From: Protoeuglena noctilucae
Taxonomy: Eukaryota
Assembly (NCBI GenBank): GCA_958009085.1
Contig: OY253675.1
Span: forward strand, 434,001-498,000
Reading direction: 5' to 3'
Length of the DNA: 64,000 nt
The stretch's first letter is position 1, and the number at the start of each line of letters is the position of its first letter. Positions 3,001 to 62,833 of the stretch are shown here, piece after piece. Made by a program: the position numbers and the translations under genes. Below the pieces are notes generated by a model that saw only the letters and a list, made by a program, of their open reading frames with translations, was not told where the DNA came from and ran no database searches.

Positions 3001-6000
3001 CTTGCGCGGCGCTTCCCTGGGGCGACTTGGATGCGTGGCGCTCTGCAGCTGCGGAGTTGCCGGAGGAGGGGCCAAGGATGGGGGCGTCGCGATTGCGCGT
3101 GTTAGAGCTGAGCGCGGCAGCTGAGGGGACTGCCAGGCGGGCCTGGGGCGACAAGCGGGGGTGGCGGCATGCGGGATCTGACGATGAGGATGAGGATGAG
3201 GGGGATAGTAATGGGGTGCGTGGGGTGGGCTGGCGTGTGGTGGCGGACTGCGATTGGACGGCGTTGATGGAAGTGGGGTTCGCGTGGGGGGACAACGCTT
3301 CGTGGGGGGAGGGGTCGAGGTTCCACCCGGAGGTGACTGACTGATTGATTGGTTTGTTGATTGGTTGACTGATTGATTGGTTGATTGGTTGAGGCTGATT
3401 GACTGATTAATCGGATCGACGTACACAATGCAATCGACCCAACCTTCTATTCAATCCCATCCCCATACCCCACCACCATCGCAGGTCAACCGCAGCCACG
3501 TCTTCGGCATCGACGCATCGGAGCTCCTCATCTACCCCCCCATCGTGCATTTCTACAATCGCTTCGGCCGATCGTGCTCTGCGGAGGAGGCGGGGTACGA
3601 GCCCTACAAGTGGTGGGAGGAGGGGATGAGGGGGGGGGATGGGGTGCTGGACTTTGGTGAGCGGTGTTGGGGGGGGGTGGTAGGGGTAGTGTGGTATGGA
3701 GATGGGGTAGTGTGAGAGGGGTGGTGGGAGGAGGGGATGAAGGGGCACTACTTCACCTCACAACTCACCCACCCCTCGTCTACTATTCCAATTCACTACC
3801 CATTTCCAAACCCCACCCCACCCATCCCTCCCACCCCTCACCCCCAGCCCTCGACCATTCACCGCCCACCATCTACCCACTCACCACCCACTCACCCACC
3901 CATCTCCCATCTCCCCACCCCCCCAGCCCCCCCCGGCACTCGCGGCGCCTCCGTGCGTGGCGGCGCCCATCTCCTCGACAGCCCCGACGACAGCGACTCT
4001 GATAACGAAGATAATAATGATAATGATGATAACGATTATTGCATCATGCCAGTCGGGTCGCGCGGTGGCATCCTGCACGACCTGTGGAGGGTGCGGCTGG
4101 ACTGCGCGCCGAGGACGGCCACGGGGCAGGCGCGGCTGTACTATCTGAGAAAGGTGAGAGGGAGAATGGGTGATAGTTTGATGAATGATAATGTCAGGGG
4201 TGATGGTGTGGTAGTAAGACAGGCGCAGCTATGGGGCAGGCGCGGCTGTACTATCTGTGGAGGGTGAGGGGGGGTGATGGGGTGATGTTTATGGTAGGGT
4301 GTAATTTTGCTTCTTGCGATTGTGAGGCAGTATCTATGGCACATACCAACCACCTTCAACCACCCTCACCCAAACCCACCCATCCCCTTCTCCCCCCTCC
4401 TCCCCCCCAGCTCGCCCGCCGGGCCCTACAAGCCATCGCCCTGTGGCGCGTGCACTGCCACCGCGCGTCGGACATCGCAGGCTCCCTCGGCCGCCGCGCG
4501 CTGATGCGTCGAGCGTTCGACAGATGGCAGGAGTGGCCGGGGGTGGCGAGCGATGCGGCTCTTGCGTTCCGGGATCGCAACCTGGCCGCCAGTGCGATGC
4601 TGGGGTGGGCCCTGTGGATGCACTACAGGCGAGTCACTGTCTATGTGTGATTGGAGATGTGCAATAACTGGCAGCGAGTGCGATGCTGGGGTGGGCGCTG
4701 TGGATGGCGAGGGTGCAGAGGAGGGTGCAGTGACTGGGATCGTGCTGTGCAAATTACTGTCACTGATACCCATACTGGTATCCGTATTGGTGTCGGTATC
4801 GTATCGGTAATGGTATTGGTATTGTTACTAATACCAATACTGATATTGATCACTCCCCCCATCCCCCCAGGGCCGCCAAGCTCTCCGCAATCCTCGAGGC
4901 CCAGTCCTTCTACCACCGTCACCTGCAATCCACCGCATTACTATCGTGGCAACTATGGCTGGAGCGGCGCAGGGAGCTGCGGGAGAGCTACGAGCGGGTC
5001 GTGGCCGCCAGACACCGAGGGCGGATGCGAGAGGCATTCGGTCACTGGCACGCGATGGCGGCACAGCGCGCGCTGCTCACGCGCGTGTTCACGCGAATGC
5101 AGGAGGCGTGGGAGGGCGTGGGGTGGCACCCGGAACACCACTACGAGTTCGATCTCATGCAAAGGGTGATGGGTGCGTGGCGGGAGAGAGCGGGCGAGGT
5201 GGTAGCGAAGCGGACCGGGGCAGCGCGGGAGGCGGCGGCGGAGGCGTACCGATCCGCGTCGCTCGCGCACCGGGCGATGAGCGCGCTGCGGGCAGCGGGC
5301 GGGGAGGCGCGGGCGCGGGGGCGGCTGAAGTCCCGGGTCTTCCGTGCGTGGTGGGCGGTGGCGGCGGTGGAGGCGCTGGAGGGCGGCGGGGCCGGGAGGA
5401 GCCAGCTGCGCGCGGCGGGGTACGCCAATGAGGGGCAGTACGATCGCATACGGTGCGTGTGGGGTGTGGGGTGGGATTGTTGGGTGGTTTATGGGGATGG
5501 AACTGTGGTGGTTGGCTGTGGGTAGTTTATCTATCAAATAGATATACGTTGTCGATCTGGTAACGCAATGTACCTCTCCCATTCCCGCAGTCGGCTGCAT
5601 GGGGCGTTTGGCGCATGGCGGCTGCTGTCGCAGGTCCGGTCCCGGCCGCTGCAGCTGGCGGCTCTGCTGTGGAAGCAAAAGGTCATGTCTGCCTTCGCAT
5701 TGGGGTGCCGAGCGTCGCGGGAGGAGGACGATTCGCGATTGCGGCCCTTTTTGGAGAAGTGGGGCGGACGGCGGCCGTTGAAGCGGGCATTCCGGGTATG
5801 GCGTGCCGTTGCCAGGAAACTCGCCAGGCTCAGGTGAGGGGATGCGGTCGTATTGCTAAGCGATGATGAGACGATGAGACGGTGAGGATGGGGCGGCGCA
5901 TTTGCAGCTTGGCTGTGGTGGTGGTGGTGGTTCCGATGCAGCAATGGCGACTCACGCAATGTGGATGACAACAATTATCGTTATCATCGCTTAGAGCATC

Positions 6001-6841
6001 GCTCAGCATTGCCCGGTTCCCTTCCGCAGGCGCCGCGAGTTCCTGGCGGCGAGTCTTGGGAATGAGGCGGCCAAGCGCCGGGTGCTGAGGGCGTGGAGGG
6101 GCGCAGTGGACATGGATGCGGCTGACGTGGCGCGCGCGAGGGCCGCGGCGAGGCTCTGCGATCGACTGAGGAAGCGCAGGGTGCTGCGCGCACTGGCGGA
6201 GGTGAGAGCTGGCGTGTGTTGCTGCATCGTGCTTTGCGCAGGGTGCTGACTCGATGACCGCACCGTTGCAATTGCGATCGCCGGCCCTGCAGCGAGTGTG
6301 TAGATACGAGCTGATAGCAATTGTCAATCGAGAACGGGTGCAGGGCGATTTGATTTCAATTTCCATGCCGTTGTTGCTGCCGTTGCTACCCCCGCAGTGG
6401 TCCATCACGTCTGCGAAGGCGCGCCTGGACACGCTGCTGCACGGGCGCGCGCCGCGGGGCAATGCAGACGCGGATTTGCAACAAGAATGGGCGGGGTCGG
6501 GGCCGGGATGGGAGCCGAGGAGTCCGCCAAGGACAGGGGAGACCATCGCGTACAAGGACGCCCTCGCTGCGCTCGCTGCGGTGCGCGGGGGCGGGATCGA
6601 GGGTCTGCGGAAAATCGGGTACGATCTGGGATGGGAGACGGAGGGCGCGGAGCCCGGGCGGACGCTCTGGCGGGGCGTGCTGCCCCGGCCGCCCTCCGCG
6701 GAGCTGGACGCGACGGACGTGCGGCTGTTGGTGCGGGCCATGGCCGCGTGGAAACTTTGGGCTCGGAACTGGAGGTTCGGGGCGGAGGCGCCGGCCGCGG
6801 GGGCCGCGGTCGCCGCCACTGCACCCTATATCGCATGCTGA
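51..6841 (+). CDS. SFI1-repeat-like (centrin-binding-like) large helical protein, 5' end outside the window
   Basis: In-phase exons ~51-510, 736-1317, 1486-2409, 2598-3332, 3485-3656, 3927-4153, 4411-4628, 4871-5452, 5591-5833, 6030-6201 and 6398-6841 (TGA). Recurrent L/M-x3-F/L-x2-W-[RK] motifs (QLRCFAAWK, LMRRAFDRWQ, MREAFGHWH, LKSRVFRAWW, LHGAFGAWR, LKRAFRVWR, LLVRAMAAWK) resemble SFI1 centrin-binding repeats. The family call rests on motif recognition only. Confidence 0.65.
499..602 (+). repeat. 42-bp tandem repeat (about 2.5 copies) spanning a splice donor
   Basis: Unit GCG(A/G)GGGTGCAG|GTGAGGGGTCACAGCTGTGGTGGTGAGCGT at 499-540, 541-582 and partially at 583-602. Confidence 0.95.
3333..3410 (+). 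repeat. degenerate (TGAT/TGAC/TGGT)n intronic microsatellite beginning at the donor
   Basis: GTGACTGACTGATTGATTGGTTTGTTGATTGGTTGACTGATTGATTGG... read directly. Confidence 0.85.
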
Positions 6842-7232: not shown

Positions 7233-8895
7233 TCGACGAAACCTTTCGCGGAGCAGGGGAGGTGGAGGCGAGGCTGGTGCTCCTGGGAGGCCGCCCTCGC
7301 CGCGCTGGTCGCCGTGCTTGGCGCAATCCTGACGCTGCGCCTCGTCCTCGTCGCTCCGCCTCCAAGACCGGCCCTCGTCGAGCTCACGCCGGCGTATTTC
7401 GACATGTCGGACCTGCAGCGCCACGCAATGACCAAGCCCGGGCAGCGTTTCCTCACGCTCACGGACTTCCTAACCGAATGCGCGGCGTTCCCGGGATGCA
7501 TGCTCCCCGGACACCCCTCGCTGGCGGGCGACGAGGTCTGGTATATCGGCATGACGGGGTCCACGAGCAAGGACGAGCGCCTGGGCCCTCTCATGGCCGG
7601 ATGGGGTAACGCCCTGCCCCGGCTGATGTTCTTCGCGGACGTCGCGGATCCGAACCTCCGCGTTTTCACCTTCCCTGCCATCGAGGGCTTACCCACCTGG
7701 CAAGACGCCCAGGTGGGACATCATACCTGGGCGGGTATGTAGATGGTCGCGAGACTGGCAGCAGAATGAATGGAGACAATACCCCTTCTCTATGACGTGT
7801 CCGCAGCACCGACAGCCCCGCGCGCTCCAGTGGCTGTTCGAGGAGCCTCAGTTCACAGCTTATGACGTGGGTCGCGCCAAGTGGTTCGTGTTTGTGGACG
7901 ATGACACGTGGGTCAACGTGGAGGCTCTGCACAAGACGCTGTCCAGGTGAGTGATACGTGTGCACTCATGATGTGTGCATGTATTGCAATGTTGGCATCT
8001 GAGGGTTATGATGTGCTCACCAGGACAGGGCTTTCAATCGGTCGGTCCGCTGGCGTCGTGCTGCGTAACAGTACCATTGGTACTAGTACTGTTTTCCTCG
8101 CAGGCTCAATTGGAACACGCGCCTTGCCATGGGCTACGTCTGGCACGAGGTGTACAGCGACATGGACCACTTCTCGGGGGGTGCAGGCGAGTACTCGAGT
8201 GCCTGCATTGCATATGCGATAGATCATAGCACAAGTGCTAGGTACATACCACGCCATAGCAACTACAATCCCAGCATCGCAACACAGGACGTGCTGTGCT
8301 TTGATGCGCTGCGCTCCCAGGTATCGTGCTGTCGGCGCCGCTGGCACGTGAGGTGGCGAGGCGGCTGTACCGGGAGCCCGGGTGTATGCCGGAGATCATC
8401 AACGGGCACGTGTGGAACGACGGTGAGGATTGTAAGCATGTCGCACTATACATGCATGGCAGTATGCGTTTTATGGAATGCGTGAGTGGCGACTGTGCGT
8501 GCACGAGAGCATATTTGAATCACCCAACCCCCCCAGCACCGACACCGTTTTTTCCCAGATTCAAAAGATGGATCCCCTCACCTCCCCTCTCCTCACCTCA
8601 CCTCCCCTCACCTCTCCCTCCCACCCCAGTGTTCCTGTCGACGTGCATCGCCTCCATCCCCGGCTCCACGGTGGTCCACAGCACGAAGTTCCACGCGTCT
8701 GCTCTCGAGGAGATGCTGGGTTCGAACCACATCGACCCCGGGAAGGTCTTTGACGCCTTTACTTTCCACAAGGTCTTCGGCGACCGGCACGCCATTCTGA
8801 CGTCCGTCCAGCGGGACTGGCAGGGAGGGGGATACCCCGCGTCGCAGGGCATTCCGTTGGAGCACGTCGACATGCTCAGGTCCTTCGTGCCGTGA
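7191..8895 (+). CDS. Fringe-like beta-1,3-glycosyltransferase (GT31), type II membrane protein
   Basis: Exons ~7191-7712, 7807-7947, 8104-8186, 8321-8422 and 8630-8895. N-terminal TM segment (AALAALVAVLGAILTL), WFVFVDDDTWVN (DxD motif), FSGGAGIVLS and NDVFLSTC are typical of Fringe/GT31. Confidence 0.85.
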
Positions 8896-12300: not shown

Positions 12301-14868
12301 GGTTGTGGTGGTTGTTGAGTGCGTGAGGGGGCTGAGGGGAGGGAGGTGCGGTGTGGGAAGCGTGCAACTGAGGGAAACACGGTAGGCAACCCCACACACA
12401 TACCCAGATGCACCCCCACACCCTCCCACACCCCCACCTGTTGTTGAGCAGCATGGGGTGCCCCGGTATCCCCTCCAAACACGCAGAGTACATTCCCACG
12501 GCCGCGTGTGGCTGCCGGCGGTGCATGGCCGCATTGCCATGGTCCTTGAATGGGAGATATCGAGAATCGCAGCCCTGCCACTGCGGGGGTCGAAGGGTGC
12601 ATAACAGATGAGTTGTCATGCGAGAGAGCGGGGGTCGCAGCCTGCCACTGCAAGTGTTGAGGTGGCATATCACAGCACATCACGATGCTTTCTTAAGGTG
12701 TGTACATGTCAACTATCACAGCCCAGCCATTGTCCCACACACACCCCTCACAACAACCCCTCACCGCTTGCTCGGCGTTTGAAAAGTCCCTCCCGTCATC
12801 CCACTGCACGCCTCCCTTCACACCCAACGCAGATGTAGATGCACCCAGCACAGATGCCGGCGATTGCTCGTGATGCCCATTTCCCTCCCCCCACGTCCTC
12901 ACAGCAGCTCCCCTCTCCATCCCCACCGCCCCATCCCCACCCCCGTCGCCAGTCACATCAAACGCATAAGCATGGTCGCCGTGATAGGTGGCCACCAATT
13001 GCGATCCTTTATTGGAAAAGGAGACGTAGGTGCAGTGGACGCGGGGGCCATCGCGACTCGACAGGTGGAGGTGGGTGGGGGCAAGGGCGAGGGTGGGGCC
13101 GGGGGCGGTGCGGGCGGCAGAGAGGGTGGTCTGCGGGGGGTTAAGGGAGGGATAGTGATGGTGATGTTAACGGTGATGGTGATAGTGATACTGATGGTGA
13201 TAGTGGGGTGGAAGTAATAGTAATAGTAATAGTAATAGTAATAGTAATAGTAATAGTAATAGTAATAGTAATAGTAATAATAAGCTGCAATCCCTCGCCG
13301 GCGACAGCTTCCTGCGATCGTAAACGCGCACGAACGCGTCCTCGCACCCCAGCGCCATCATGTGCGGTCGGGAGGGGTTGATGGCCAGGGATTTGATGCC
13401 GGTGACGAAGCGTGACCCGCGGCACTCGATCAGCACGTTGGGGGAGTGGGCGGGGTCGGACCTGTGAAGGGGGGGTTAAGTGGGGGTGGGGTGGCGATGA
13501 GGTAGGGGGTGAGGGAGGGCGTAAGTTGCTTAGCCTAGCCGTACGTTTACGTTTAGTATTCTCTCATTCACCCCAATCGCACATGCCCTTTCATAGCCCC
13601 TCGCCTGCCCATTGGCGTTCTCAGGTCGTACTGCCTCACGGTGCCGTCCTCGCTGGCACTCCAGAACAGGTGGGGCTCCATGGGCTCCACCTCCACCTGA
13701 GAGGGAGTGAGAGAGAGAGTGAGGGTCATTGTGAGTGATAGAGGGAGGGAGGGAGGGAGGGATGGTGAGCAAGTGACGGTGCATGCGAGTGACGGGGTGA
13801 AGGAGTGATGGCAGAGATACAACCCATGCACTGCCCATCCCCTCACCTGCTTGACGCGGTCGGCGTGGCAGCGGAAGGTGGTGGTGCGCCTTGACACGCG
13901 ATCGTGCATTGCAGCCGGGTCCTCGTGAGGCGCGGGCGCGGAGCGCGACAGGAGGCGCCAGGGGGCGTCGCGGGGGACCACGTCCAGCGTGTGGTGCGCC
14001 GCGGTGTTGTCCATGGCCCTGGGGAAAGCGGGAGGGTGGGTACTAAAGGGTGGGTGTTGGGGGATGGTACCGGTGGGTGCAGGTGATGGAGGTGAGTCGA
14101 ACGAGAACGCGGGGGACGAGTACAAATAGAGGCCTGCCTTGGGATGTCACGACACGTTCGTAGCTTCGATCGCGCTGCCTTAGAGTTGCTCCATCGAGCT
14201 GCCGAGGTCTGAAAAGCAGCGACTCACCCGGTGACGATCTGCGCGTTGCCCGTGCACGGCAGGAACTTGACGCCGAAGATGTTCATCGTATGGTCCGTGG
14301 CCATAATAATCCCCGAAGTGCCGTTGGTCGGGTAGCGCCTGCGGCGGACGCGGCGGGCGCGAGCTGCGCCCTGCGACCCGGCAACCAGCCCTCCCCGGCG
14401 CCCAGAGGCAGTCTGACCCGCTGCAGCGATGACCGATGCACAAACCTAACTGTACCTGATCATTACGCAGGTATCGTCGGAGCCGGACGCGAGGAACTGG
14501 CCGTCGGGGCTCCACGCGAGACGGTTGACGCACCCGTGGTGGCCGTACAGCACATCCTCCACGCACAGGCTCCGCGCGATGCCTGCGCGCGAGAAGAGTC
14601 GCTGTATAAGGTCATAGACGAGCTGCGCCGACGCGCGGGTCCAGGATTGCGACGGACGGGGCACGCGATAGGGTACGAGGGGCCAAGGGACCGGGGAACG
14701 TGGTTGAAGCCCAGCGCGGCACCCGTCTCCGACAATTGTTGCCCTGCAGGGCTCGAATCGATCGGGTCGAGACGGAGCCATCGCGCCTAGCGGGCACCCA
14801 CCCGGCGTGAAGTCCCCTCGGCCGCCCCAGCCGTCCGCCCGCAGGGAAGCCATCGCGTACTTGTGCAT
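9345..14868 (-). CDS. WDTC1: WD40 plus TPR DDB1-CUL4-associated factor, WDTC1/ASG2-like, with C-terminal CaaX
   Basis: LYGHHGCVNRLAWSPDGQFLASGSDD, NIFGVKFLP, CHADRVK, FWSASEDGTVRQYDLR, TPR-like RAAAYLHRNYAGDAFSALMD, RRYVGHCNVHTDIKEACFVG and VANCCQPHPVDPVLATSGIE. The last exon ends in CAMQ-stop at 9345. The exact start codon is uncertain (14868 or 14853). Confidence 0.88.
13213..13281. repeat. (TAGTAA)n hexanucleotide microsatellite in a WDTC1 intron
   Basis: About 11 near-perfect AGTAAT units, starting about 17 nt into the intron after the GC donor at 13298 (minus strand). Confidence 0.95.
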
Positions 14869-15245: not shown

Positions 15246-16401
15246 ATGGGGGGAGAGGGCCCGGACGCCCGCGAACGATTGCGGGATGCCCTTGCGATGG
15301 CCGCGGCGTGCGCGGTTGCGGAAACCGGGCTCCTCGCGCAGCTGAGGGAAGTGCGGGAGCGGCAGGCGCTGCTGGAGCGCGCGGCCGCGTGGGCGGGCGA
15401 CGATGCGCGGCCCGAGGATCATCCCGTGACTATCGATTCCGAGGCCGAGAACGTAAGGCAGGCGTTCGCGCTGCTGCGCTTCATCCGCGGCGGGGGCATG
15501 CGGCGGGACGCCGCATGGGATGAGCACCGGGCGCTGTGCTGGGCCGCGCGAAGGCTTTTGAGCTCCAATGAGGCTGAAGTGGGAGACGCAGCCATCGCGG
15601 GAGCGATACGGTGAGGACAGCGCGGGACGCGCACCGATACGTGCGGCAACGTTTGGGATTGAAGTTGCCGACGTGCTTTCACCCTCTCCGCAGCTGCGTT
15701 GCGCCCCGCTGGGACGTCCAGGTCGTGTCCCGATTGCTGGAAGACCTGGTGGAGGACCTACGCAGCCACCCCGGGCCCCGGGCCGAGCGAGTGGGGGGGC
15801 TTATCACCGCACTGGCAGAGTGCGCGACGTCGCAATGGGTGCGTGGCGCTGCAGATGCAGATGCTTTGCCAGTCGAGGAAATTGGGCGTACATGCAGCGA
15901 TGTCTGCAAGGATATCTGGTTTATATACCTCGCAGGGCCTGGTGTTCCTCCGCTCCCTGTCCCTGCTGCTCCACGTGGCCGCAACACTGGAGGGTGGCAC
16001 ACCCATCCATGCACAGGCGACGGAGCTGGCCCAGTGCGGCCACGCGGCATGTCTCGTGCTGCGAGTCGCGCGGACGTATCGCAAGGACCAGTCCGTGGTA
16101 ACCAAACAGCAGGCGAGAGCGCTGGCAAGGGCGGCAGCAACGAAGCGTGCCACCCGGCTGTCCATTCGTACCTCGATTGATACAAAGCTTCTGCATCTAC
16201 TTACTCTCATGAATCCAATGTGTAGTATCCGACCATCGCCCGCAGTGCAGCGCGGCGCTCGACTGCTTGTCCGCCCTCAAAGAGCGAGGAGCAGAGCTGC
16301 CACCCTCGCTGGGCCTGTGCTCCCGTGCCATCGACATCATCTTCGCGGCGGCGGGAGACGTGCTGAGCCGGGCGTTTCCGGGCATGCCCGGCCTCAGTTA
16401 G
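15246..16401 (+). CDS. hypothetical alpha-helical protein
   Basis: Exons ~15246-15610, 15693-15838, 15935-16097 and 16246-16401 (TAG) join in phase with GT-AG ends. Leu/Ala-rich, no motif recognised. Confidence 0.6.
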
Positions 16402-39487: not shown

Positions 39488-39654
39488 GACCGCGATTGAT
39501 CTGTCAGGTCAGGTCAGAGGCAGTGATAAAGCGGCAGGCAGGAAGGGTGGGGCAAAGAGGGGCGCCAGCAGAGCCCGTTTTCCCTCCCCATCCACAGCCT
39601 GCCCCCATGAAGTGGCAGTTCGGTGCTGCATCGGGCCCTCCCTGAGGTGGTAAG

Positions 39655-46911: not shown

Positions 46912-48223
46912 ATGCAGTCCACGCTACGGGCGTGGGGCGTGGGCCCGTCGGTTAGCAGCCACGGCGCCTCCCCGGGGCCATCGCGGCCGCCCTCCTCCCT
47001 CCGGACGCCGTTGCAAATGCGTCGAATGGCGTACGGTGCGCAGCGCGGATGGACGCGCCGGCGAGCTCCGCGCGGGCGCAGACCTACGACGGTCACCTCC
47101 ATCGAAGGATTGCCGCGCCGCACCGCGTCTGCCCATCCGTCGCCCGCAGATCCCGAAGTGCTTCCACCAGAGCAACCCAAATCCAGTCGCAGGGCGCCCC
47201 CACCGCCCAGGCGCGTGAGCCACCAGCCCTACCCTTCCACAGTTACCAGTCTCCCCACTCCTCCCCATCGCCCCGCGTTGCCTAACCCTGTCGCTCTCGC
47301 TCTCGACTGCAGGCCTCCAGCGCCGCCCCCGCCCCCTCCGCGCCTGGTGGACCGCCGCGCTGCCCTGGCCATCGCCGCGGGGGTCTTGGGCCTCTCTGGC
47401 CTACTCATGCTGGAGAACAGCGACTTCGACGCGCCTGGCCAGGCCCCGGCGAACCGCGTGTTCGGCATCGACGCGAACGGCACCAGGATCGAGAGGAACC
47501 GGCAGGGGACGTGAGTGGTGGGACATGGGTGGGGTGGGGAGGGGCGGGGCGTGCGTGTAGGCGTGCTTGACCTGGACTGGGTGACAGGCGCAGAGAGTCT
47601 ATGCAAGCGGAGCATGCATAAAACAGCGCTGGACTCTCGAGCAAGCTCATCTGTCTCTTTTGCTAAGAAACGTATTTGTGTGCGAGAGACCACTTGGATC
47701 GCACGTGCAGGGTCCGTGTCAAGTACTCTGCCAACGGCATCGAGTCCCTCGTTCACGAGGTGTACTACGACCCGTACCACGAGGGCGTCCTCATCCTCAA
47801 GCCCCAGGTGAGTTTTGTGGCTGCAGGTAGTCGGGCTGTCGAGGTCACACCTAAGCTTACGCTGCGGCTTGTGGTGCAAGCCCAGCGACCGCCCGCGCTT
47901 GTGCCTGACGTGCAGATGGACTTAGACGAGGGCGTGTTCATGTACATCGACACGGGAATCGTGGACATCGACCTCAACTCTCCGGACGACCTGCGCAAGG
48001 TGTTTGCCGGTAAGAGCCCAGCCGTCTGTGCGCCATCCTTCAGCAAATGTGGGCCTACGCTCGAGAAAGCATTGCGTAATACACTAACGTTGATGCGGGC
48101 GCAGGGGACCTGTGGCTGAGGAGGGCGCGGCCGATGCGTGCGTACGTGGACAGCATCAACGTGGACCCCAACCTCATTGGCACCGACAACGAGCCTCCGG
48201 AATGGCGAACGGGAGGCTGGTGA
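46912..48223 (+). CDS. hypothetical plastid (possibly thylakoid) protein
   Basis: Ser/Arg/Pro-rich transit-peptide-like N-terminus, then DRRAALAIAAGVLGL (twin-arginine-like plus hydrophobic stretch). The exons join in phase to ...PEWRTGGW-TGA at 48223. Confidence 0.55.
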
Positions 48224-48580: not shown

Positions 48581-51500
48581 ATGGAGGCGATCGGCCAGAC
48601 GTACGTCAACCCCGATCTTGAGGGCGAGGATGAGATTGAGGAGGAGGAGGAGGCGGCCAAGCTCGCCACCGTCTTCCTGGCGAGCGGCGGGGCGAGCGGC
48701 GGGGCACAGGGGACGCCGTTGGTAGGTTGCACCTGCGAACTGGCCCGGATTCTCCCGCACCCGCAGGTGGACATGGCACCGAGCATGCTCCAGCCACGCG
48801 TGGAGAACTTCTCGTGGGCCGACATGGCGCTCCTGAACATCAGCCACCACATCACGCACGACGCCCTCCAGGCCCCCGAGAACATGCACGCCGTCGTCTT
48901 CTTCGGCGCCCAGGCGAGTTGTCGAGTTTATGAGTAACAATCGCGCATATCCGGGATTCCCGGAAGCACCCGGATGCCTCCGCCGGGACGGGCGAAGTAG
49001 TAAAGCATTTGCGCGAGTGTGCGTCCTCACGGCCCTCCGCCGCGCAGGTCCAGGAGCCCAAAGATGCGGACGAGGGCATTCACGTCATGTTGCCGCTGTC
49101 CCGGCCGAGCGTGGCGGGTCTCCGCAAAGTGGATCCCACCAACTTCGACTCCGACGACCATTTGCAAACCGCGATTGGCTCCGCGCCCACGCCGCCCCAC
49201 GGGTCGCGGATCCACTTCCTATCCGCGGCCGTCACCAAGGCCAGGCGAGCGCAATGCGGGTTTTTGTTTGGAGCACACACGCTGCTCCCTGCGCTTCGTG
49301 CTTTGCACCATGATAGCTACAGCACGTCTCGCTCTCCCCTCGCAGGCAGATGCTGGAGAAGCTAATTCGTTCCAAGGGCAAGACCGGCCCGCGCGTGGAC
49401 ATGAGCGTGTACGTCTACACGGACGACGACAACGTGATGGGCAGCGGGAGTGGTGCATTGGCGTATGCCAACAAAGCCAAGGGGGTTACCAAAACGCTCG
49501 CAGAGATGGCCGCGCAGGGCGTGCAGGTGAGTGGTGCGGTGTGGTGGTGTGTCTGTGGCATGGTGTGGTGGAGTGACGGTGCTGCTGGTCATACGGTCGC
49601 ATGGCATGTACTCCAATATACTACTAATAATTTAATACTATATGTAGATACTTGCGACACCATGTGTTCCCTGTTTACCCAGGTGGACGTGGCTCTCTTT
49701 TACGACGGCCCCTCCCTGCCCTCCACCGATGCATGGGACGACCTGCTGCCCGACGTTTCTGGCGTTTCTGGCAGCGCGGGGGGGTTAGGGCAAACGTCGC
49801 AGGCGACGGAGGGGTTAGGGACGCAGGCGACGCAGGCGATGGGAGTGCAGGGGGCGGGACATGGGGTGGACAGAGGGGCGGGGGCGATGGGGATAAAGGT
49901 GGCAGTGGATGGGCAGATGGATGGTCCATCCATGGACATGCCGACGGTCACGCCTTGGTCGAAGGAGCAGGTGCAGGCGCATATACAGGTGACTGCAGGG
50001 AGGGGTGGGGTTTGGGAGTGGTGGGGCGGCAGGGTGGCAGCGCAGAGATGAGGGCTGAACAAGCTTATTGACACCCCCACCGCTACTGCATGGCTTTGCA
50101 CAAATGCCACCCATATCTCTACCTCCACCACCGCAGGGCTTTGAGTGTGGTAACATCCGCGTGGCCCGCCGCAAGCGCGCCTACCGCACCCTTCCCCTCT
50201 GCATTGGGCCTGATGGGCCGCCCTTCATGGTGCGAGCCTACTACACGGTCAAGAAGACGCCGCTGCCGTCACCGGGTGAGTGATTGGTGAAGTGAACATG
50301 GTGATGGTAGTGGTGGTGATGTTGTGGTGCGTGCGTACTACAGGGTCCTGTCAAGAAGACCGCACTGCCGTCACCGGGTGAGTGGCTGGTCGATGATGGG
50401 GAGGAGTGGTGATAACGATAGCGATAATGATTATAAGTAATAGCATTTGATAATAATATGACTCCCTTCTCCCCTCACACTCAGTGTGGATCGACCCTGA
50501 GAACCGTGAGACCAGGCCGCTGACGAAGTTCGTGGTCAAGAGCACCACGCAAGTGATGGACAGGGAACAAGTGACGGGGAGGCAGATACGGTACGGCAGG
50601 GGAGAGACGGTCACGCTGCAGGTGAGGGGTGGGGAAGGGGGGCATGGAAAGCGATGGGGTGGCATACGTAAACAGCTAAAGCGGCTAGATTGTCAGTAAC
50701 AACCCACCCACCCCTACCCCTGATCTTCCCTCATCCACTCACCTCATCCTCACCCCTCACCCCCATCCCCACCCCCCTTACCCAAACGCAGGCATCTGAC
50801 ATGGCGCGTGCCAGAAACCCCGCCAAGGACGCGGGCGTCTCTGGCATCCGCGTGGTGGGGTTTATCCCCAGAGATGACCTGACAGCGTTGGATGAGATGG
50901 GGGCGGGGATGTTCCTGTACCCAGACACCAGCCTGGCCTCAGGTGAGGGGGGGTGGCTGTATATATATTGGTGATATAATGGTTATATTGGATTTGGTTA
51001 TCTATTGGAACCAATATAAAAACTAATTGGATATATATTGACTTGAGAAGTGGCTTGATGCCTAACGGCCACCCTCACCCCTGTTAACACCCTCACAGCC
51101 ACCCTCACTACCCCCGGTATCTATGACCCCCGCCTCTCACCCCGACCCGTTAACCCCCTCCTTCCTGCAGTGCGCAAGAAGCACGTCAGGCAGTTTCTGA
51201 CGCTCCACCAGGCGATGCTTGCGAGGGGGGTGGTGGCCGTGGCACTCATGGCCAGCCCAGCGGGGGGGTGAGTTGTTGTTATGTGTTTTGATGAGTTGTT
51301 GCATGTTGTGTGTTGTCGTTGTGTCGCTGTGCGTTACTGTATGTTGTTGTGTGGATGGTGAGGGGTGAGTGTGTAATTACCAACCACTACCACCCCCACT
51401 GCCACCCACCTTCACACCCCCCCCCCCAGTCTCTCCCCCATTGCCCTCATCCCCACTCGCGAGTCTTGGCTGGGCGATCCCGGCATGGGACTGCAGTTAG

Positions 51501-53027: not shown

Positions 53028-56000
53028 TCAAGCCTCGCCGTGCAGCTCCCCCAGAAACCCCGCCAGGCACCCCACCTCGTGCAAAAGCCCCCCCACGCGG
53101 CCCCAGCCCCGCCCCAGCTCGCCGCGCACCACCCGCGCCCGCCGCCGCAGCGCCCCGTGCGCCTGGATCAGCCCCGCGTGCGCGTCCAGCACCACGCGCA
53201 GCACGGCGTTGACCGCGTCAAAGTTGCGCTTTGCCCGCAGCTCGGCTTCCGCGAACGACAGCAGCGCTGCCACGCGCCCCACCTCCTCCGCCGTCGCAGC
53301 CGCCTCGTCCGGGACCTCCAGCGCGCGGATCTCCGCATCCAGGGCGCTCGGCTTCATCGACCGCACCGCAGCCACGGCGCTCGTGAAGTCCCCGGACCTC
53401 TCGCACCTCCGCAAAAGCGCGATGAAGTCCGAGTCGCCCCCACGTGCGTTCGTGCGCAGGATGCGCGACCCGGGCCCGCCGGCCGCGTCCTCGTCGCCGC
53501 TCTCGCTCCCGCTCTCCCCCTCGCGCTCCCCGCCCCCCTCCAGGTCAAACACAGGGTTGCGCCCCATCGCCGCGCCCGAGGCGGTCGGAAGGAAGAACGG
53601 CGCCTGGGCTGGCTTGCGGGGTGGCTGCACGGGCTTGCTGCGCTCCCGGATCGCGGCGAGGTCCGCGAGGGACGCCCACTGGGCTCGCGGCAGGAGGGAC
53701 GTGGTGACGAGCTCGGGCGCCACCGGCAGCGGCGTCCCTGCGTGCGTGAAAGGGCAGCGTTCTCGAGTGTTTGACGATGGCACACTGTGCAAACAATGCT
53801 CGCAAGCGTGCCACCCCGCCTGCTCGCCTGTCGCGGGGTCGACCCGCTGCCCCGCCTCCGCCTCCGCACCCATCTCGGTGTCCTCCTCCTCATCGCTCCT
53901 ATCCGTCTCATCACTCTCATCTCCCGCATCACTGGATGACTCCGCAACCTCCACGTCCGCCCCCGGTGCTGGCAGCCCGCACCGCACGGGCCGCTCGCTG
54001 CCCGCGCGCAGGTTGGCGGGGTTGCCGAACAGCGCCTGGTTGGACCAAAGATAGATGCCTCGTCGGTTGGCGTGCGTGGTGGCCAGGAGGTCCATGGTGG
54101 GGCTCAGCGACAGCGACGTCACTGCGAGAGGGGAGAGAGGAGGTGGCGGGTTCAGCGGGTGAGCAAGTGAGGGGAATGAGAGCGAGCGAGTGGGGGTGTG
54201 AGGGAGCGTGCCTTACCGGGTGCGCCCAGGACCATGACTTGCAGGCAGCGTGAGTTAGGCACGTCCCACGCCCTGACGTGGCCGTCCATGGCCGCTGACA
54301 GGAGCCACCGTGCGTCAGAGCTGAAGGCCATGTCGGTCACGCGGTCGGTGTGGCCTCGGAAGCGCCTCACAATCCTGCGGGTTAAAGAAAGCGCAAGGAT
54401 TGGTGCCGTGGTCGGGGAAAGCATTGGCAGCTACTGTTGTCGAGGCATGGGGGCCTAACAATACGCCATGCATTCATGGCGGAGGTCATGCCACCGCATG
54501 CACCGGCAAGCCACGGCGTCCCAGACCGTGATCCCATGGTCCTCCCCAGCCAGTGCCACCAGGGCGCTGTGGCGGTGATGGGCCATGCGCAGGACACTGC
54601 GGGGGCATGAAGAGACCAAGGATGGTGAGTAACTTGCCCAGCCCCAGCCCTGCTCTGTCCCACCTACTCCACACAGCCCAGGCCCAGCCCCTCGCCAGCC
54701 CCTCCTCTCACCGTACACCCACGTGAGCCTCGGCGATGAGCCGGCGTGACTTGAACCCCCACACCCGCAGGTAGCCGTCGGTGGAGCACGAAACGGCGTA
54801 CTGGTTGCACGCATCCGACGACACGCCCGTCACGGCCCCGCTGTGCGCGTTAGTCTCTGGCGTTTCGCCAGAATCCACGAACGATTTCAGCCCCGCGTCT
54901 TTCCCGTACAGACCCTGTGGGTGGTAAGGGAGCAGGAGGGTCGGCGCTGAGTGGCACAGCCGCGGTCGTCCCTGGCAATGCTAAGGTCTCCTTGTGTCAC
55001 AAACACGATAACAGGCAAACACAGCCCTGCGCCCTCGCCTTGCCGCGCTGGTACGCGCCCCGGTGCAGCCCCGACTGCATGTTGTAGCGGTCCACGCGAC
55101 CGGCGGCCGAGCCGACGAGCGCGAAGTTGCCGCAGGACGAAAGGCAGACAGCCGTCACAGGTGCGTTGGGCACAGGGTCGTCTCGGTCTCTCGGAGGCAC
55201 GAGCACCCAGTCACCCAGGCACCCGTCCCGCAGGCGCCACGTGTAAGCACGAGAGTCGCCCTCGTGAGCCGTCACGACGTTGGCCCAGTCGCGCTCCCGC
55301 ACCTGTGCCGCGTCCAACGCCACCACTGCGATGCGAAGATACAAGCAGTCTGGTTCATAACAACTGTAGTCACCGAGAAGCCCCAGCCATGGGCATTGTC
55401 ACTCAGCCAACCCCGGCCACCACCGCACGCACCTCGCGGCAGCTTGAGCTCCTCCTCCTTGACCCGCAGCCGCTTGGCACGCCTCCCCACGTGACCCTGA
55501 CTCAGCTCCCGGCTCTGCTGGTCCTGCAAAAGTGGCGCCGGGTTGACACTTGACCGCCCCACCTCAACCCCGCTCCCCACTGTAACAGCACGCCGAGCAG
55601 CTCGGCAAAACAGATAAACAAACAAGCCAGCAACCTTGCCTGGATAGCGCTGAAGAGTCGGAAGGAGCGGTCGTGTCCGGCAGAAAGCAGGCGCGTACCG
55701 TCGCCGTAGTGTCGCACCACGGACGGAGGGGCTGAGTGACCCGCACGGAAGCGCAGCAGGCGATGGGAGCCGTCCGCGTTGTCGAAGATCCAGTGCTTTA
55801 CTGCGAGGGGCGCATGCGCAGCAGTTGGAGATCCCGTGCTGCCCTGCTGCCTGGCTCTCGTGCGCGTCCTCCTGTGATGCCCCTGTCCCACAGGGTGGCC
55901 TGAGGGGCGCCTGGCCGGGCCAAGCGCTGCCCCGCGACTCACGTGCGTTGTCGGTGGCGGCGGACATGAGGACGGGCTCCCCAGGGAAGAAGTGGAGGCA

Positions 56001-57700: not shown

Positions 57701-59779
57701 ATGACCCCCGGGCCACCATCCCCTGCGGGGGGACGCACGCTGTGCGAGCAAAGTGGGACGATAATCGAGCGTCAGGCGAGGGATGCTAGTCCATGGCGAC
57801 AAGCGCTGCCGCCGCATTCCAATGGACAGAACCATCCGAGTTCCACGCTGTCGCCGCCGGAGATTGAGGCGCGGCGGAGGGAGGCGCGAAGAAATGCGGC
57901 GGGCTTTCTTGCTCCCTGCAGATCGGCGATTCCTCGGTCCCTTCCCTCCCTGATATTCTGCCGCTGGAGTACGTTTTGAGAACGGACGAGCTGCGGAGGG
58001 ACAGCGGTGAGCCTGGCAGGCGTCTGCAGCGACATGAGTTTCGCAGAGCCGGCAAGTGTTGGATTCGTCCTGATTCATCCTGCTTGTGGCTTGCGTCCCA
58101 CAGGTGCGCTGGCAGGGACACCGCACATTGGTGCCGGGGTCGAGAGGGAGCAGGCCGAGGATGGAGAGGCCACGGACGACGATGGGATGATCGCGGACGT
58201 CCATGCCGTACCCAAGGCTTCTGGGATTTGGGGGATCTGGGGCGGCGTCCGGGACTTTGCAGTGGACGGTGACGTGCTAGGAATCGCTCTGGCCACTGGG
58301 AGAGCTCACTGTCGTGCCCATCACGCATCACAGTCGATGCTCGCTTATGCGCTGCCTTAATCTCCGCCCCCGCAGCCGCCGGCGCGGTGGGTGTCGCCTG
58401 GGACACCGCTCAAGTCATGCTCGCCTCGCTGGGGATCTCGGACCCGCCGTGCCAGTCGGGGCCGGAGCACGCAGCACGTCTCGAAGACACGGTCGCCATC
58501 ACGGGGCACGGTGACCGAATCCCGTCGCCTGCAGCTGACAGCCAGTCCATTAGCCCGTGTAGCTGCAGATTTTTACAATTGCTAGGACTAGTCCACGGCT
58601 CACACCCAGTCCCTTTGCATGCAGATACCACCACGGAGGTTGCGGTCGTGGTGCGCTCGGGGCCCGAGTCGTCCCCGCGCGTGCGCGTCTTCCAGGTCAC
58701 CCTCGGCAAGTCCAATAGGGACCAAGAGCCCCCGCCGCCGGTAGCCGAGCTCTCCGATCCGGCCATGTGCGGCGCGACGTGCTGCCGGTGGCGCCCCCAC
58801 GGGGGCCGTGCGCTGGCCATCGGGTGCGAGGGCGGGGTGTGTTTGGCTGCTCTCTGCGGTCCCGACCTCGCGGGGAGCGGCGCGCAGAGCCAAGCCATCC
58901 CGCTGGGGGGCGCCGCTGTCGCTGGGGAGTCTGCGGCTGGGAGCTCCATTCGCTTTCTGCCCTCGGGCGCCGGATCGGGGGTGCCCGTGGTGTGTTTGGC
59001 CTGGTCGCCGTGCGGGCGGCTGCTGGCCGGGGCGCTCGCCAGCCGGCGGGGGCTGCGGGTGTGGGACGTCGCGAGGGGCTCGTGTGCGGCGCTGGGGACG
59101 GGGCGGCGGGCGGTGCGCCTGCTGCGGTGGTCGCCCGGGGGAGGGCGGCTCTTGGCGGGCCTGGAGGGCGGCACGCTGGCTGTCTTTGACACGGCGCGGT
59201 GGGGGCGGGAGGAGTGGCAGAGGGGCGCGGCGTCGGCGGGAGAGGTGGGCGGGGCGGCCTGGTCCCCCGACGGCGCCGCCGCCATCTTTTGCTTCGAGGG
59301 TACGCGGCACCTCGCGCAGCTGGCCTTCCTGGGCCCGCCGCCCTCGCTGGCGGCCCAGCTGGCGCCCCTGACTCCGCACGAGCTCAGTTACACGCTGCCC
59401 GAGTGGGGGGGCGACGGTGCCGCCGATTGCATCGGTGAGTCGCGCGCGTGCTTGCGAGGGCAGGTCGTGGCATTGGACGGAGCGCGAGTGCTGTAGCGGT
59501 GTCGCACCCGCAGTGGCCAGCTTGGCCTGGGACCCGTCCGGCAGGCGACTGGCGGTGGCGGTGCGGGGCAACCATCCGGCGGCGGGGCAGGTCGCGCTCT
59601 TCTCCGTGACGACCGGGGCCCTGATCCAGTCCCTGACGTTCGTGGGATGGGTCGTGCCGCCGCACCACGCCGAGGACCCTGCGGTAGCCGTGCAGTTCCA
59701 GGAAGGCGGGCAGAAACACGCCGTGCTCGGCGCGCTGCACGCGTCGGGCAGGATCAGTCTCTACCCGCTCTTCATTTGA
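57701..59779 (+). CDS. Aladin (AAAS)-like WD40 nucleoporin
   Basis: N-terminal PPSPAGGRTLCE, CCRWRPHGGRALAIGCEGGVCL, LAWSPCGRLLA, VWDVARG, LLRWSPGG and VASLAWDPSGRRLAV. This resembles the Aladin layout. Confidence 0.72.
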
Positions 59780-60114: not shown

Positions 60115-61032
60115 ATGGCGGACGCTGCCGAGCTTTACCTCGTTCGCCACGGTGCGACGGACTGGAACGTGGAGGGGCGCATCCAGGGGCAGATGGAACC
60201 GGGCCCCGGCCTCAACCAAGAGGGCCAAGCGCAGGTGCGGGGCATCGCGTGACTCACAAAGGGTGGACCTGTCGTGACCCCTGCAATCGTCCAGCAAGAT
60301 GCTTCCCTCCCGTGCAGGCCTCGCAACTCGCCGAGCACCTGGTTGGCGCTGGTCCCTTCCACGCGGTCTACAGCAGCGACCTGCTGAGGTGCCGACAGAC
60401 CGCCACTGCGATATCGACCCAACTGGGCGACGCGGCGCCCCTGCACTTCCGCCCGGACCTGAGGGAGCGCGCATTAGGCGTCTTGGAGGGCCTGACGTGG
60501 TCTGAAGCGCGCGCAAGGCGAGTCTTCTGGGTCCATATGCGGTAGCGACCACTTGGCAAGCGAGAGATGACGACCTTACGCCATCGCGATCACACTGCCA
60601 CTGCAACCCACAGGGAGCCGGATGCATGCGTGGCTGCGGTGCGGGGTTCGGAGGACGAGGAGGTGCCTGGAGGAGGGGAGTCGCTTTGGCAAGTGCGGTC
60701 GCGCATCGTGGGGGCGGTGCATTCGATCGCGGCGCGGCATCGGGGGCAGCGCGTCGTGGTGGTGACGCACGGAGGTTGTTTACAACAGCTCTACTGCAGC
60801 TGCATGGGTGAGTGCGCGCGGGTGCCCGGGGGCCGCTCACATGCGCAAGCAGACCGGTGAATGACGGTGCACGTGCGCTGCAGGGAACTTGTACAAGGGC
60901 ACAGTGGGCAACTGCTCGCTGAGTGTGGCGGTGGCGGATGGTCGCGAGGTGCGGTTGACGCGGTGGTGCGAGGAGGGCTTCCTGTCGACGCCCAGCACAG
61001 CTGCGCACGGCGGGGGAGCGCGGGCCGGCTGA
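60115..61032 (+). CDS. histidine phosphatase superfamily (PGAM-like) protein
   Basis: LYLVRHGATDWN (RHG motif), VYSSDLLRCRQTA, LRERALGVLEG, GGGESL, VVVVTHGG and GNCSLS. Four exons ending at TGA 61032. Confidence 0.92.
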
Positions 61033-61565: not shown

Positions 61566-62833
61566 ATGTGCGAGCTCTCACACGTTCGCGGCGTCACAGC
61601 TGCTCCCATTCGAGAGCGGCCGGCGCTGAGGGGGTGGCAGGCGCGGCCCGGGCGCCTGGTGACGTGCGCGCCTCGTCACAGGCGAGGGTTGCAGGCCCGC
61701 GCGCGTCAAGCCAGTGGGTCTTCGCCGCAGCAACCCCCTCAGATCCCACTTCATGTTTGTATGCATCTCATCCGCCCGTGGACCAGCCCTTTGGCCTTCG
61801 CTATGACGCAGGTTCACTTGCCCGCGCGGCCCCTCGCCGTGCTCGTACAAGGGCAACAAGACGAGGGAGGCGCGCGCGGTCTCTGACGCGCCCGCGGAGG
61901 ACCGCGAGCCCAGGTCACCCCACCGCGATGTGCCGGTCCCCGGCATGGCGTCGCTGGACGGCCAGGAACGACCCATGCAGGGCATGGTGGCTGGCGGTCT
62001 CTATTTCTCCCTCTACCAGTGCCCCGGCGTCCGTAGCTTCGCTTCCAGCTACGACCGTCTCCCCGCGGATCCCTATCGCGCCAACCAGTACCGCCGCTTC
62101 AACCGCCTGATATACCGTCCGGCGACGGGGGAGCTCCGAGCGGACCCTGACCCGCACTTCTACCAGAGCGCCGTGCTCAACGCGTACAACCGCGGCGACA
62201 TCCGCAAGTACCCGCCCATCGAACGAGAGACCCTCGAGCACCCCGGCTTCCGTGCGGCCATCGGGGCCTTCGTGGACCAGGCGAGTGATGGTGGGGCAGG
62301 GCGTGTGTAGTGCTAGTGGGGCTTGGTACGTGGAGTGCTGGTGGGTCCTGCCCTGCACCCCACGTGTGTGACGAAGCGTGCGCCGGCATTGCGACGGTGA
62401 TCCCTGCGCCTGGTTGCAGGTCCTAAAGCACGACCCCCAGCGTCGCGAGGTGGCGGAGGCGGGAGAGGAGCTCGACCCCATCTACGCCTTCATGATCCGC
62501 ACCGAGTGCGCCCCATCGGCGCCGGGGGTGTACCAGAAGGCCGTGGTGCCGACGCCCGAGGGAGTGCACCAAGACGGAATGGACTACGTCTCTATTACGT
62601 GCGTGGCGAGGCGGGACGTGACGGGCGGGGTGTCGTCGCTCTACTACGCCCGGGACGACCCCGCGCCTTTCGTCCAAATGGAGCTGCCGCCCGGCTTCAC
62701 CATGCTCCTGAACGACAGGATCATCTACCACCACGTCAGCAAGATCGAGGCGGTCGGGGGCGGCGAGGGCGGCTCGCGTGACGTCCTCGTGCTCACGCTC
62801 AACCGCCTCGACGGAGAGCGGCACGTGTGGTGA
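61566..62833 (+). CDS. bacterial-type 2OG-Fe dioxygenase (2OG-Fe_Oxy_2-like) with a putative transit peptide
   Basis: Exons ~61566-61681, 61812-62280 and 62420-62833. Motifs YDRLPADPY...YRRF, FYQSAVLNAYNRGDIRKY, PTPEGVHQDG (HxD), LLNDRIIYHHVS and RDVLVLT. Confidence 0.8.

What the first reader, a model, noticed from the sequence alone, without database searches (positions are those of the whole stretch)
4629..62282. Unusually high frequency of GC-AG introns (about 1 in 5)
In-frame models use GC donors at 4629, 8187, 13298, 13604, 18485, 21076, 29332, 33984, 36153, 37292, 38450, 45428, 48914, 49245, 55038, 55639, 57776, 58052, 60518, 61682 and 62281, mostly AG|GCGAG. The best-anchored cases lie inside conserved motifs (iPGM PSDA/DMGNSE and GMMQ/YDGD, GT31 SGGA/GIVLS). 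This is about 20 of roughly 110-120 hand-modelled introns, against about 1% in most model eukaryotes. High GC-donor use is known in some haptophytes and dinoflagellates. GCGAG contains a CpG, so GT/GC switching could be driven by GC bias versus methyl-C deamination (inference).
Basis: partly seen in the sequence, partly recalled or inferred. Interest (0 to 1): 0.7.

Follow-up and report, generated by a model that had tools for sequence, protein, structure and literature searches.

The report
Frequent GC-start introns, green alga
In this stretch of a marine green alga's genome about one intron in four to five starts with GC instead of the usual GT, and the choice seems to drift with local DNA mutation pressure, which offers a testable explanation for a known puzzle of GC-rich algae.

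Summary
Confirmed. The window is from an early-branching core chlorophyte, probably a pedinophyte. My 18 gene models give 28 GC-AG introns of 123 (23%; 95% CI 16-31%). RNA contigs show 4 GC-AG among the 15 joints displayed (39 found), plus one more by contig arithmetic. They are U2-type. GC occurs almost only in strong donors: 21 of 36 MAG|GYRAG sites against 7 of 87 others. In strong donors the C/T choice follows local G-Y-G composition: 18.9±2.8 GC predicted with no fitted parameter, 21 seen. A CpG-specific decline runs along gene bodies, as methyl-C deamination would give, but intron length predicts equally well and the two are confounded. No introner families, terminal repeats or target-site duplications were found. 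Similar rates are published for Micromonas pusilla (22%) and Aureococcus (40%), where the cause was called an enigma; the scan has noted high GC-donor rates in other protists and a fungus. What is new: a non-introner case with an apparently neutral +2 position. U1/U6 and methylation could not be tested.

The parts
4629..4870 (+). GC-AG intron, gene A (large protein, no Pfam family at threshold in the 2 exons scanned)
   Evidence: cag|GCGAGT; beats best in-frame GT by 6.8 nats; model only
8187..8320 (+). GC-AG intron, Fringe-like glycosyltransferase
   Evidence: cag|GCGAGT; margin 5.3 nats; SGGA/GIVLS motif is recalled, PDB search found nothing
13131..13298 (-). GC-AG intron, DCAF6/8-like WD40 gene
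   Evidence: ccg|GCGAGG; GC model beats each of 2 GT alternatives in 30 of 30 homologues
13462..13604 (-). GC-AG intron, DCAF6/8-like WD40 gene
   Evidence: cag|GCGAGG; GC model beats the GT alternatives in 26 of 30 and 29 of 30 homologues
16113..16245 (+). GC-AG intron (new), gene D
   Evidence: cag|GCGAGA; margin 7.0; model only
18325..18485 (-). GC-AG intron, membrane-protein gene E; non-CpG donor
   Evidence: cag|GCAAGT; margin 9.6
20519..20658 (-). GC-AG intron (new), gene E
   Evidence: gag|GCGAGT; margin 7.9
20971..21076 (-). GC-AG intron, gene E first intron
   Evidence: cag|GCGAGG; margin 9.2; first exon unanchored
21622..21727 (-). GC-AG intron (new), Usp-like gene F
   Evidence: cag|GCGAGC; margin 7.2; model only
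23396..23516 (-). GC-AG intron (new), Usp-like gene F
   Evidence: acg|GCGAGA; margin 16.4; weak Pfam Usp match runs to the exon end (E 0.066)
29116..29332 (-). GC-AG intron, IDM1_C-domain gene G
   Evidence: aag|GCGAGT; margin 17.5
33880..33984 (-). GC-AG intron, gene G
   Evidence: aag|GCGAGT; margin 12.8
34096..34213 (-). GC-AG intron (new), gene G first intron
   Evidence: gag|GCGAGA; margin 15.7; depends on the chosen start codon
35957..36153 (-). GC-AG intron, iPGM (GMMQ/YDGD)
   Evidence: RNA joint in X1, X3, X4; no GT-AG slide possible; colinear with homologues
37213..37292 (-). GC-AG intron, iPGM (PSDA/DMGNSE)
   Evidence: RNA joint in X1, X3, X4; no GT-AG slide possible; colinear with homologues
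38360..38450 (-). GC-AG intron, 2OG-Fe(II) oxygenase
   Evidence: cag|GCGAGG; margin 10.3; an X1 contig piece ends at 38358, next to the acceptor, joint not shown
45230..45428 (-). GC-AG intron, Rrp6-like 3'-5' exonuclease/HRDC gene
   Evidence: gag|GCGAGA; margin 8.7
47211..47312 (+). GC-AG intron (new), gene L; weak +4C donor
   Evidence: RNA joint in X1, X3, X4 slides only to GC..AG, cag|GCGCGT; no in-frame GT
48680..48766 (+). GC-AG intron (new), Ku70-like/SAP gene
   Evidence: ctg|GCGAGC; margin 17.5; joined VFL/VDM resembles a recalled Ku70 N-terminal motif; homologue search found nothing
48914..49047 (+). GC-AG intron, Ku70-like gene
   Evidence: cag|GCGAGT; margin 16.6
49245..49345 (+). 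GC-AG intron, Ku70-like gene
   Evidence: cag|GCGAGC; margin 10.5
53738..53827 (-). GC-AG intron (new), Utp21/WDR36
   Evidence: RNA joint in X1, X3, X4 slides only to GC..AG
54915..55038 (-). GC-AG intron, Utp21/WDR36
   Evidence: X4 contig piece starts at 55038 and the exon lengths add up exactly (arithmetic by hand); margin 16.7
55524..55639 (-). GC-AG intron, Utp21/WDR36; non-CpG donor
   Evidence: cag|GCAAGG; junction colinear with 7 of 7 homologues displayed
57776..57921 (+). GC-AG intron, Aladin-like WD40 gene
   Evidence: cag|GCGAGG; no in-frame GT alternative
58007..58103 (+).
   Evidence: both in frame; the GC option gives a 52-nt intron and scores within 0.7 nats without a prior; no RNA
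60518..60613 (+). GC-AG intron, histidine phosphatase
   Evidence: aag|GCGAGT; Pfam His_Phos_1 matches end at profile 94 and resume at 100, with 5 residues between; margin 9.5
61682..61811 (+). GC-AG intron, 2OG-Fe dioxygenase first coding intron
   Evidence: cag|GCGAGG; margin 6.1; first exon unanchored
62281..62419 (+). GC-AG intron, 2OG-Fe dioxygenase
   Evidence: cag|GCGAGT; margin 13.0; Pfam domain on both sides

Best explanation
These are ordinary U2-type introns in an alga whose spliceosome barely penalises C at intron position +2 when the rest of the donor pairs well with U1 (exon end MAG, +3 to +5 RAG). Shown: the GC donors are spliced (5 RNA-supported sites), and GC is confined to strong donors. 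Inferred: in strong donors +2 is nearly neutral, so T and C settle at the local mutation balance. In GCGAG the C is part of a CpG. Near gene starts and in short introns CpG is intact and most strong donors are GC; in the bodies of long genes CpG has decayed, probably through gene-body 5mC deamination, and strong donors are mostly GT. The near-invariant G at -1 may be what pays for the +2 mismatch (inference).
For: GC in 21 of 36 MAG|GYRAG donors against 7 of 87 others, Fisher p 9e-9. With +2 set to U, GC donors pair better with the consensus U1 end than GT donors, -11.2 against -9.0 kcal/mol. Local C/(C+T) at synonymous and intronic G-Y-G sites predicts 18.9±2.8 GC among the 36 with no fitted parameter; 21 seen. 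It also ranks the sites: permutation p 0.0002-0.010 over all 6 variants tried. CpG-rich half: 12 of 16 strong donors GC, synonymous C 0.84; CpG-poor half: 9 of 20, synonymous C 0.39. The decline along genes is CpG-specific: third-position C before G falls 0.79 to 0.50 from the ATG outwards, before other bases 0.81 to 0.75; the other strand agrees. GC donors: 16 of 50 within 1 kb of the ATG, 1 of 14 beyond 4 kb. -1 is G in 121 of 123 donors and in 18 of 19 RNA-supported ones. Compensation by a strong context is published for GC-AG donors (PMC1557818), neutral fixation in strong contexts was proposed for mammals (PMC2490688), and gene-body CG methylation is reported for Chlorella variabilis (PMC9861306).
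Against: Intron length predicts GC use at least as well as CpG content (17 of 19 strong donors GC below 150 nt, 4 of 17 above). In a joint model length keeps an effect (p 0.04) and CpG o/e does not (p 0.94); the two correlate at rho -0.75. The split by median CpG o/e alone gives only p 0.096, the split by gene p 0.077. The intron-only predictor underpredicts (15 against 21 seen). The CpG gradient weakens when exons over 600 nt are left out (0.79 to 0.68-0.73). Five MAG|GCRAG sites on the sense strand are not modelled as donors. Only 36 strong donors, and model-based calls favour consensus-like GC sites. No methylation data, no U1/U6 sequence, no orthologous introns.
Confidence: 0.6

Rival explanations
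1. Selection tied to intron length: short introns are recognised across the intron and tolerate a GC donor, while long, low-complexity introns with decoy donor copies need GT. CpG is a passenger.
For: Length is the stronger single predictor (LRT p 0.002 against 0.021) and survives in the joint model. 17 of 19 short strong donors are GC, more than intron composition predicts. Long introns often hold copies of the donor.
Against: It does not explain why the GC share in each class is close to the neutral G-Y-G fraction. GC donors work in long introns: 36153 (197 nt) is RNA-confirmed, and 29332 and 4629 exceed 200 nt.
Confidence: 0.2
2. The GC introns are relics of introner (transposon) invasions that used GC donors, now too decayed to align.
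For: Introner families can have up to 50% GC donors (PMC9860276); GT and GC donors occur in Pelagomonas and Micromonas introners. The nearest unnamed iPGM relatives are called as unbroken 489-594 aa ORFs on contigs of up to 21-23 kb, which suggests they lack several of these introns if those contigs are genomic.
Against: No similarity among the 123 introns once low complexity is masked (0 BLAST pairs); best local scores among the 28 GC introns average 21.3 against 20.1 for shuffles, maximum 28; no excess of terminal inverted repeats; boundary repeats equal those of GT donors with the same CAG end (4.4 against 4.2, p 0.24). GC introns vary from 80 to 242 nt.
Confidence: 0.1
3. A variant U1 (or U6) snRNA pairs with C at +2, so GC introns form a separate class.
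For: The tolerance looks far higher than in model species (0.37-0.86% GC), so some trans-acting difference is likely. Not testable here: no snRNA in the window, no genome.
Against: A dedicated pairing partner would free GC donors from needing a strong context, yet only 7 of 87 weaker donors are GC. U1 5' ends were unchanged in M. pusilla and Aureococcus (PMC3033335).
Confidence: 0.08
4. Artefact: assembly errors or wrong hand models.
For: 23 of the 28 GC sites have no RNA support; the RNA comes from one study; 24 of 39 joints were not shown.
Against: 4 of 15 RNA joints are GC-AG (p 2.5e-5 against 1.2%); no letter differences between RNA and window; four further runs hold 99% of the sampled words; 26-28 GC calls survive a 1.2% prior.
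Confidence: 0.02

Closest known systems
Abundant GC-AG introns of GC-rich picoalgae: Micromonas pusilla 22.2%, Aureococcus anophagefferens 39.6%, Chlorella NC64A 7.7% (Iwata & Gotoh 2011, PMC3033335; passages and supplement 1 rows)
   Same: GC-rich genome (window 64%), same order of GC-AG frequency, same phylum as M. pusilla and Chlorella.
   Different: A different lineage (pedinophyte-like). No repeated intron families here. Here the GC share is resolved into a donor-strength gate and a local CpG/length gradient; that paper called the origin an enigma. Other green algae of similar G+C are at 2.0-2.7% (C. reinhardtii, V. carteri, O. lucimarinus, Micromonas RCC299).
Ordinary U2-type GC-AG introns of animals and plants (Sheth et al. 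2006, PMC1557818; Pucker & Brockington 2018, PMC6310983; Churbanov et al. 2008, PMC2490688)
   Same: AG acceptor, U2-type donor, +2 mismatch offset by a closer match elsewhere; GT/GC switching at strong donors.
   Different: About twenty times more frequent (23% against 0.4-1.2%); GC is the majority state in strong donors. In mammals conversion rates did not depend strongly on local composition; here GC use follows it.
Introner elements with GY donors (Gozashti et al. 2022, PMC9860276; Simmons et al. 2015, PMC4540971; Pelagomonas, 10.1101/2021.10.25.465678)
   Same: Marine alga, many GC donors, short direct repeats at intron boundaries.
   Different: No families, no terminal inverted repeats, no target-site duplication beyond the CAG|G overlap; broad length range.

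Membership tests
U2-type GC-AG introns | Intron begins GC, ends AG and is removed from mRNA | tested here: met
   4 of 15 RNA joints, plus 55038 by contig arithmetic; all 28 end in CAG
U2-type GC-AG introns | Rest of the donor matches the U1-complementary consensus better than GT donors do | tested here: met
   -2A in 25 of 28 against 48 of 95; +4A 27 of 28; +5G 28 of 28; match score 5.5 against 4.4, p 5e-7
U2-type GC-AG introns | Excised by the U1/U2 spliceosome with consensus snRNAs | not testable with these tools
   no snRNA in the window; no genome held
U12-type introns | 5' motif RTATCC/GCATCC | tested here: not met
   0 of 123 donors
U12-type introns | CCTTRAY branch site near the 3' end | tested here: not met
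   2 of 123 introns match, neither with a U12 donor
Introner elements | Families of near-identical introns | tested here: not met
   0 pairs among 123 introns with low complexity masked; unmasked hits shown are simple repeats; only one 64-kb window seen
Introner elements | Terminal inverted repeats and/or target-site duplications | tested here: not met
   TIR score 10.1 against 10.0 for mixed ends; boundary repeat 4.4 against 4.2 for GT donors with CAG and 4.0 by random pairing
Introner elements | Presence/absence against close relatives | tested here: inconclusive
   the metagenome scan returned 80 loci at 30-53% identity, none intron-split algal; only indirect hints from ORF calls of relatives
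Pedinophyceae (host lineage) | Groups with a named pedinophyte in gene trees | tested here: inconclusive
   Utp21: clade with P0131 and Pedinophyceae sp. YPF-701, support 0.925; iPGM: early branch with unnamed P0001/P0014, not sister to YPF-701

The most novel reading that the evidence does not exclude
This lineage has a spliceosome that has effectively stopped reading U at +2 in well-paired donors (G|GYRAG with an almost invariant -1 G). The second base of the intron then behaves as a neutral CpG site, and the GT/GC state of a donor records the methylation history of that part of the gene. GC donors would be a sequence map of unmethylated 5' regions, and the cross-species 'enigma' of GC-AG abundance would be spliceosome tolerance multiplied by the CpG mutation balance, with no introners needed.
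Probability: 0.35. Interest if true: 0.7.

Novelty: new variant of a known kind. Interest (0 to 1): 0.5.

Why it matters
GT at the intron start is the most conserved splice signal, and its frequent replacement by GC in some algae was left as an enigma with U1 unchanged (PMC3033335). This genome has both states at high frequency, no sign of introners, and an internal gradient, so one genome with RNA-seq and a methylome can separate spliceosome tolerance from mutation pressure. It also points to an organism in which to look for the splicing factor that relaxes +2. In practice, GT-only gene prediction would damage most genes here: 16 of the 18 models contain at least one GC intron.

Tried and rejected
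No own genome is held, so no genome-wide count and no U1/U6 search; Rfam found nothing in the window. The one metagenome scan with an iPGM alignment returned 80 loci at 30-53% identity that look prokaryotic, so no orthologous introns. A homologue search with a Ku70-like exon found nothing; a PDB search with the 27-aa GT31 exon found nothing. The automatic gene finder split long low-complexity exons into false introns; these were removed by hand after checking open frames, and one acceptor was corrected later. The donor of the GT intron ending at 30706 is uncertain. A possible 5'UTR intron ending at 61565 and the partial intron at the window start were not counted. Introner, U12, TIR and TSD readings were tested and not met. 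CpG spacing shows no nucleosome-length peak; the autocorrelation follows exon-intron spacing. GC introns show no significant shift in rank within genes (p 0.23). X2 holds unspliced or DNA contigs across both GC and GT introns, so it says nothing on GC-specific retention. Runs X9-X12 held next to none of the words. Huff et al. 2016 could not be opened and is not used as evidence.
Full report
Source. The window is 64% G+C and intron-rich. Its iPGM is 73-78% identical to chlorophyte iPGMs and branches early among core chlorophytes with two unnamed proteins (94 sequences, proteins under 480 aa and 17 land-plant duplicates left out). Its Utp21 has Pedinophyceae sp. YPF-701 as best named hit (70%) and groups with it at support 0.925 (61 sequences of at least 400 aa). 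The organism is a marine early-branching core chlorophyte, probably a pedinophyte; two single-gene trees do not settle the class. No whole genome is held.

Observation. All 21 coordinates carry GC on the gene strand. I built 18 gene models with a small gene finder and hand curation; each reads without internal stops. They hold 123 introns: 28 GC-AG and 95 GT-AG, 22.8% (CI 16-31%). Without the 8 least secure GC sites it is 20 of 123.

RNA. Four metatranscriptome runs of one study hold the sequence. I laid them on 35760-55750, a third of the window. Of 39 joints, 15 were shown; 4 of these can only be read as GC..AG (36153, 37292, 47211, 53827), each in three runs, and 11 are GT..AG. A fifth, 55038, follows from an X4 contig whose piece starts there and whose exon lengths add up to the base (my arithmetic). 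With a loose end that confirms GT intron 35836 and two GT introns implied by the same sum, 5 of 19 RNA-supported donors are GC. The data are contigs, so splicing efficiency cannot be measured.

Independent checks. With a donor matrix trained only on GT donors of other genes and a 1.2% prior, 26-28 of 122 coding introns still pick GC; every GC site beats its best in-frame GT by at least 4.8 nats or has none, and two RNA-confirmed sites had margins of only 5.3 and 7.2. MAG|GCRAG is strand-biased (26 sense, 3 antisense) and 21 of the 26 are modelled donors. Homology anchors 13298 and 13604, 55639, 60518 and both iPGM sites.

What kind of intron. All 28 end in CAG; none has a U12 donor. There are no intron families, no terminal inverted repeats, and no boundary repeat beyond what a CAG|G donor gives, so recent introners are not the source within this window. 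GC donors are the strong ones: -2A in 25 of 28, +4A in 27, +5G in 28, against 48, 70 and 81 of 95 GT donors. GC is found in 21 of 36 MAG|GYRAG donors and 7 of 87 others. G at -1 is nearly invariant, 121 of 123. Such compensation is the published property of U2 GC-AG donors (PMC1557818, passages); what differs is that GC is the majority state in strong donors.

Mechanism. If +2 is free in strong donors, its C share should equal that of neutral G-Y-G sites nearby. It roughly does: pooled synonymous and intronic G-Y-G sites within 400 nt predict 18.9±2.8 GC donors of 36, and 21 are seen. Synonymous sites alone predict 23-25, intronic alone 15. All six variants tried rank the sites better than chance (p 0.0002-0.010). 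The window has CpG-intact stretches (o/e about 1.05 within 1 kb of start codons) and CpG-poor gene bodies (0.73 beyond 2 kb; rho -0.75), and GC donors fall from 16 of 50 to 1 of 14 along that gradient (the two partial genes left out). The loss is CpG-specific on both strands, the usual footprint of 5mC deamination (established knowledge); gene-body CG methylation is reported in Chlorella variabilis (PMC9861306, passages). Against this reading: intron length is tightly coupled to CpG content and is the better predictor (17 of 19 strong donors GC below 150 nt, 4 of 17 above; joint model p 0.04 for length, 0.94 for CpG o/e); simple CpG splits are not significant (p 0.096 and 0.077); and the gradient is weaker without the longest exons. 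So the strength gate is shown, near-neutrality is well supported, and the methylation cause is inferred and not separated from length. The trans-acting cause of the tolerance is unknown: no snRNA lies in the window.

Known context. Iwata & Gotoh 2011 (PMC3033335; passages and rows of supplement 1) report 39.6% in Aureococcus, 22.2% in M. pusilla, 7.7% in Chlorella NC64A and 2.0-2.7% in four other green algae; they found consensus U1 5' ends and called the origin an enigma. Plants average 1.2% (PMC6310983, passages). Introner families can carry up to 50% GC donors (PMC9860276, passages; also PMC4540971 and 10.1101/2021.10.25.465678, passages); how much of the M. pusilla figure they explain I did not check. 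Churbanov et al. (PMC2490688, first 10,000 of 16,335 characters) proposed neutral fixation in strong contexts but saw little dependence on local composition in mammals. The YPF701 genome preprint (10.1101/2021.10.04.463119, five passages) mentions introns once, for chloroplasts; its supplements were not seen and could hold splice-site counts, as could the SI table 6 of PMC9860276. My ten searches (listings) showed no paper on GC-AG frequency in pedinophytes and none linking GC donors to CpG decay; the library lacks most subscription papers. The scan's earlier notes list high GC-donor rates in Telonema-like protists, Neolecta and euglenids, none for this genome.

Verdict. Real, RNA-supported, and at the upper end of what is published for green algae. 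A high GC-AG rate is a known phenomenon; a non-introner case in a new lineage, with a clear strength gate and a +2 base that follows local composition, is a new variant that makes the open question testable. Interest 0.5.

Noticed in passing
introns with donors at 511, 4154, 4629 (+); 10378, 12080, 12764, 17644, 28593, 29332, 36642, 42123 (-); 50276 (+): About 12 long introns (184-463 nt, of 39 introns of 180 nt or more) contain one or two imperfect copies of the upstream exon end plus donor, or of the acceptor plus exon start, roughly 40-180 nt from the real site; 14 of 123 introns passed the score against 6 of 1221 control pairings. RNA shows the outermost donor is used at 36642. Tandem duplications across splice sites seem to lengthen introns here; how identical decoy donors are ignored is unexplained.
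   Followed up: partly
window 12000 (-), inside intron 12080-11797: The intronic copy of a GT donor reads AG|GCGAGG: a T/C switch at +2 between an original and its duplicate.
   Followed up: partly
all donors: G at exon position -1 in 121 of 123 modelled donors and 18 of 19 RNA-supported ones; acceptors are CAG throughout, mostly GCAG; no clear branch-point consensus.
   Followed up: partly
long introns, e.g. 28305-28593, 9916-10378, 51268-51429: Long introns are G-rich in the 5' half and C-rich in the 3' half (skew +0.28/-0.32 in GT introns) and share simple repeats in both orientations, so the halves could pair.
   Followed up: no
24459-27142, 31226-33563 (-), 42431-43653 (-): Very long low-complexity, Gly/Ala/Val-rich, CpG-poor open exons (1.2-2.7 kb) in the IDM1_C-domain and Rrp6-like genes.
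   Followed up: no
whole window: Two compositional regimes along genes: compact CpG-intact 5' parts with short introns, and CpG-poor 3' bodies with long introns.
   Followed up: yes
P0001/P0121 and P0014/P0124/P0126: The nearest unnamed iPGM relatives are called as unbroken ORFs starting at or near the positions of this gene's introns 1 and 3, on contigs of up to 21-23 kb, so they may be far poorer in introns.
   Followed up: partly
40731-41106 (+): RNA-supported 376-nt GT-AG intron in the 3' UTR of the gene at 39655-40632; the transcript runs on over the 3' end of the convergent Rrp6-like gene.
   Followed up: no
13215-13280 (-): A (TAT/TAC)n microsatellite inside the GC intron 13298-13131 keeps a false poly-Leu frame open and misled the gene finder.
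   Followed up: no
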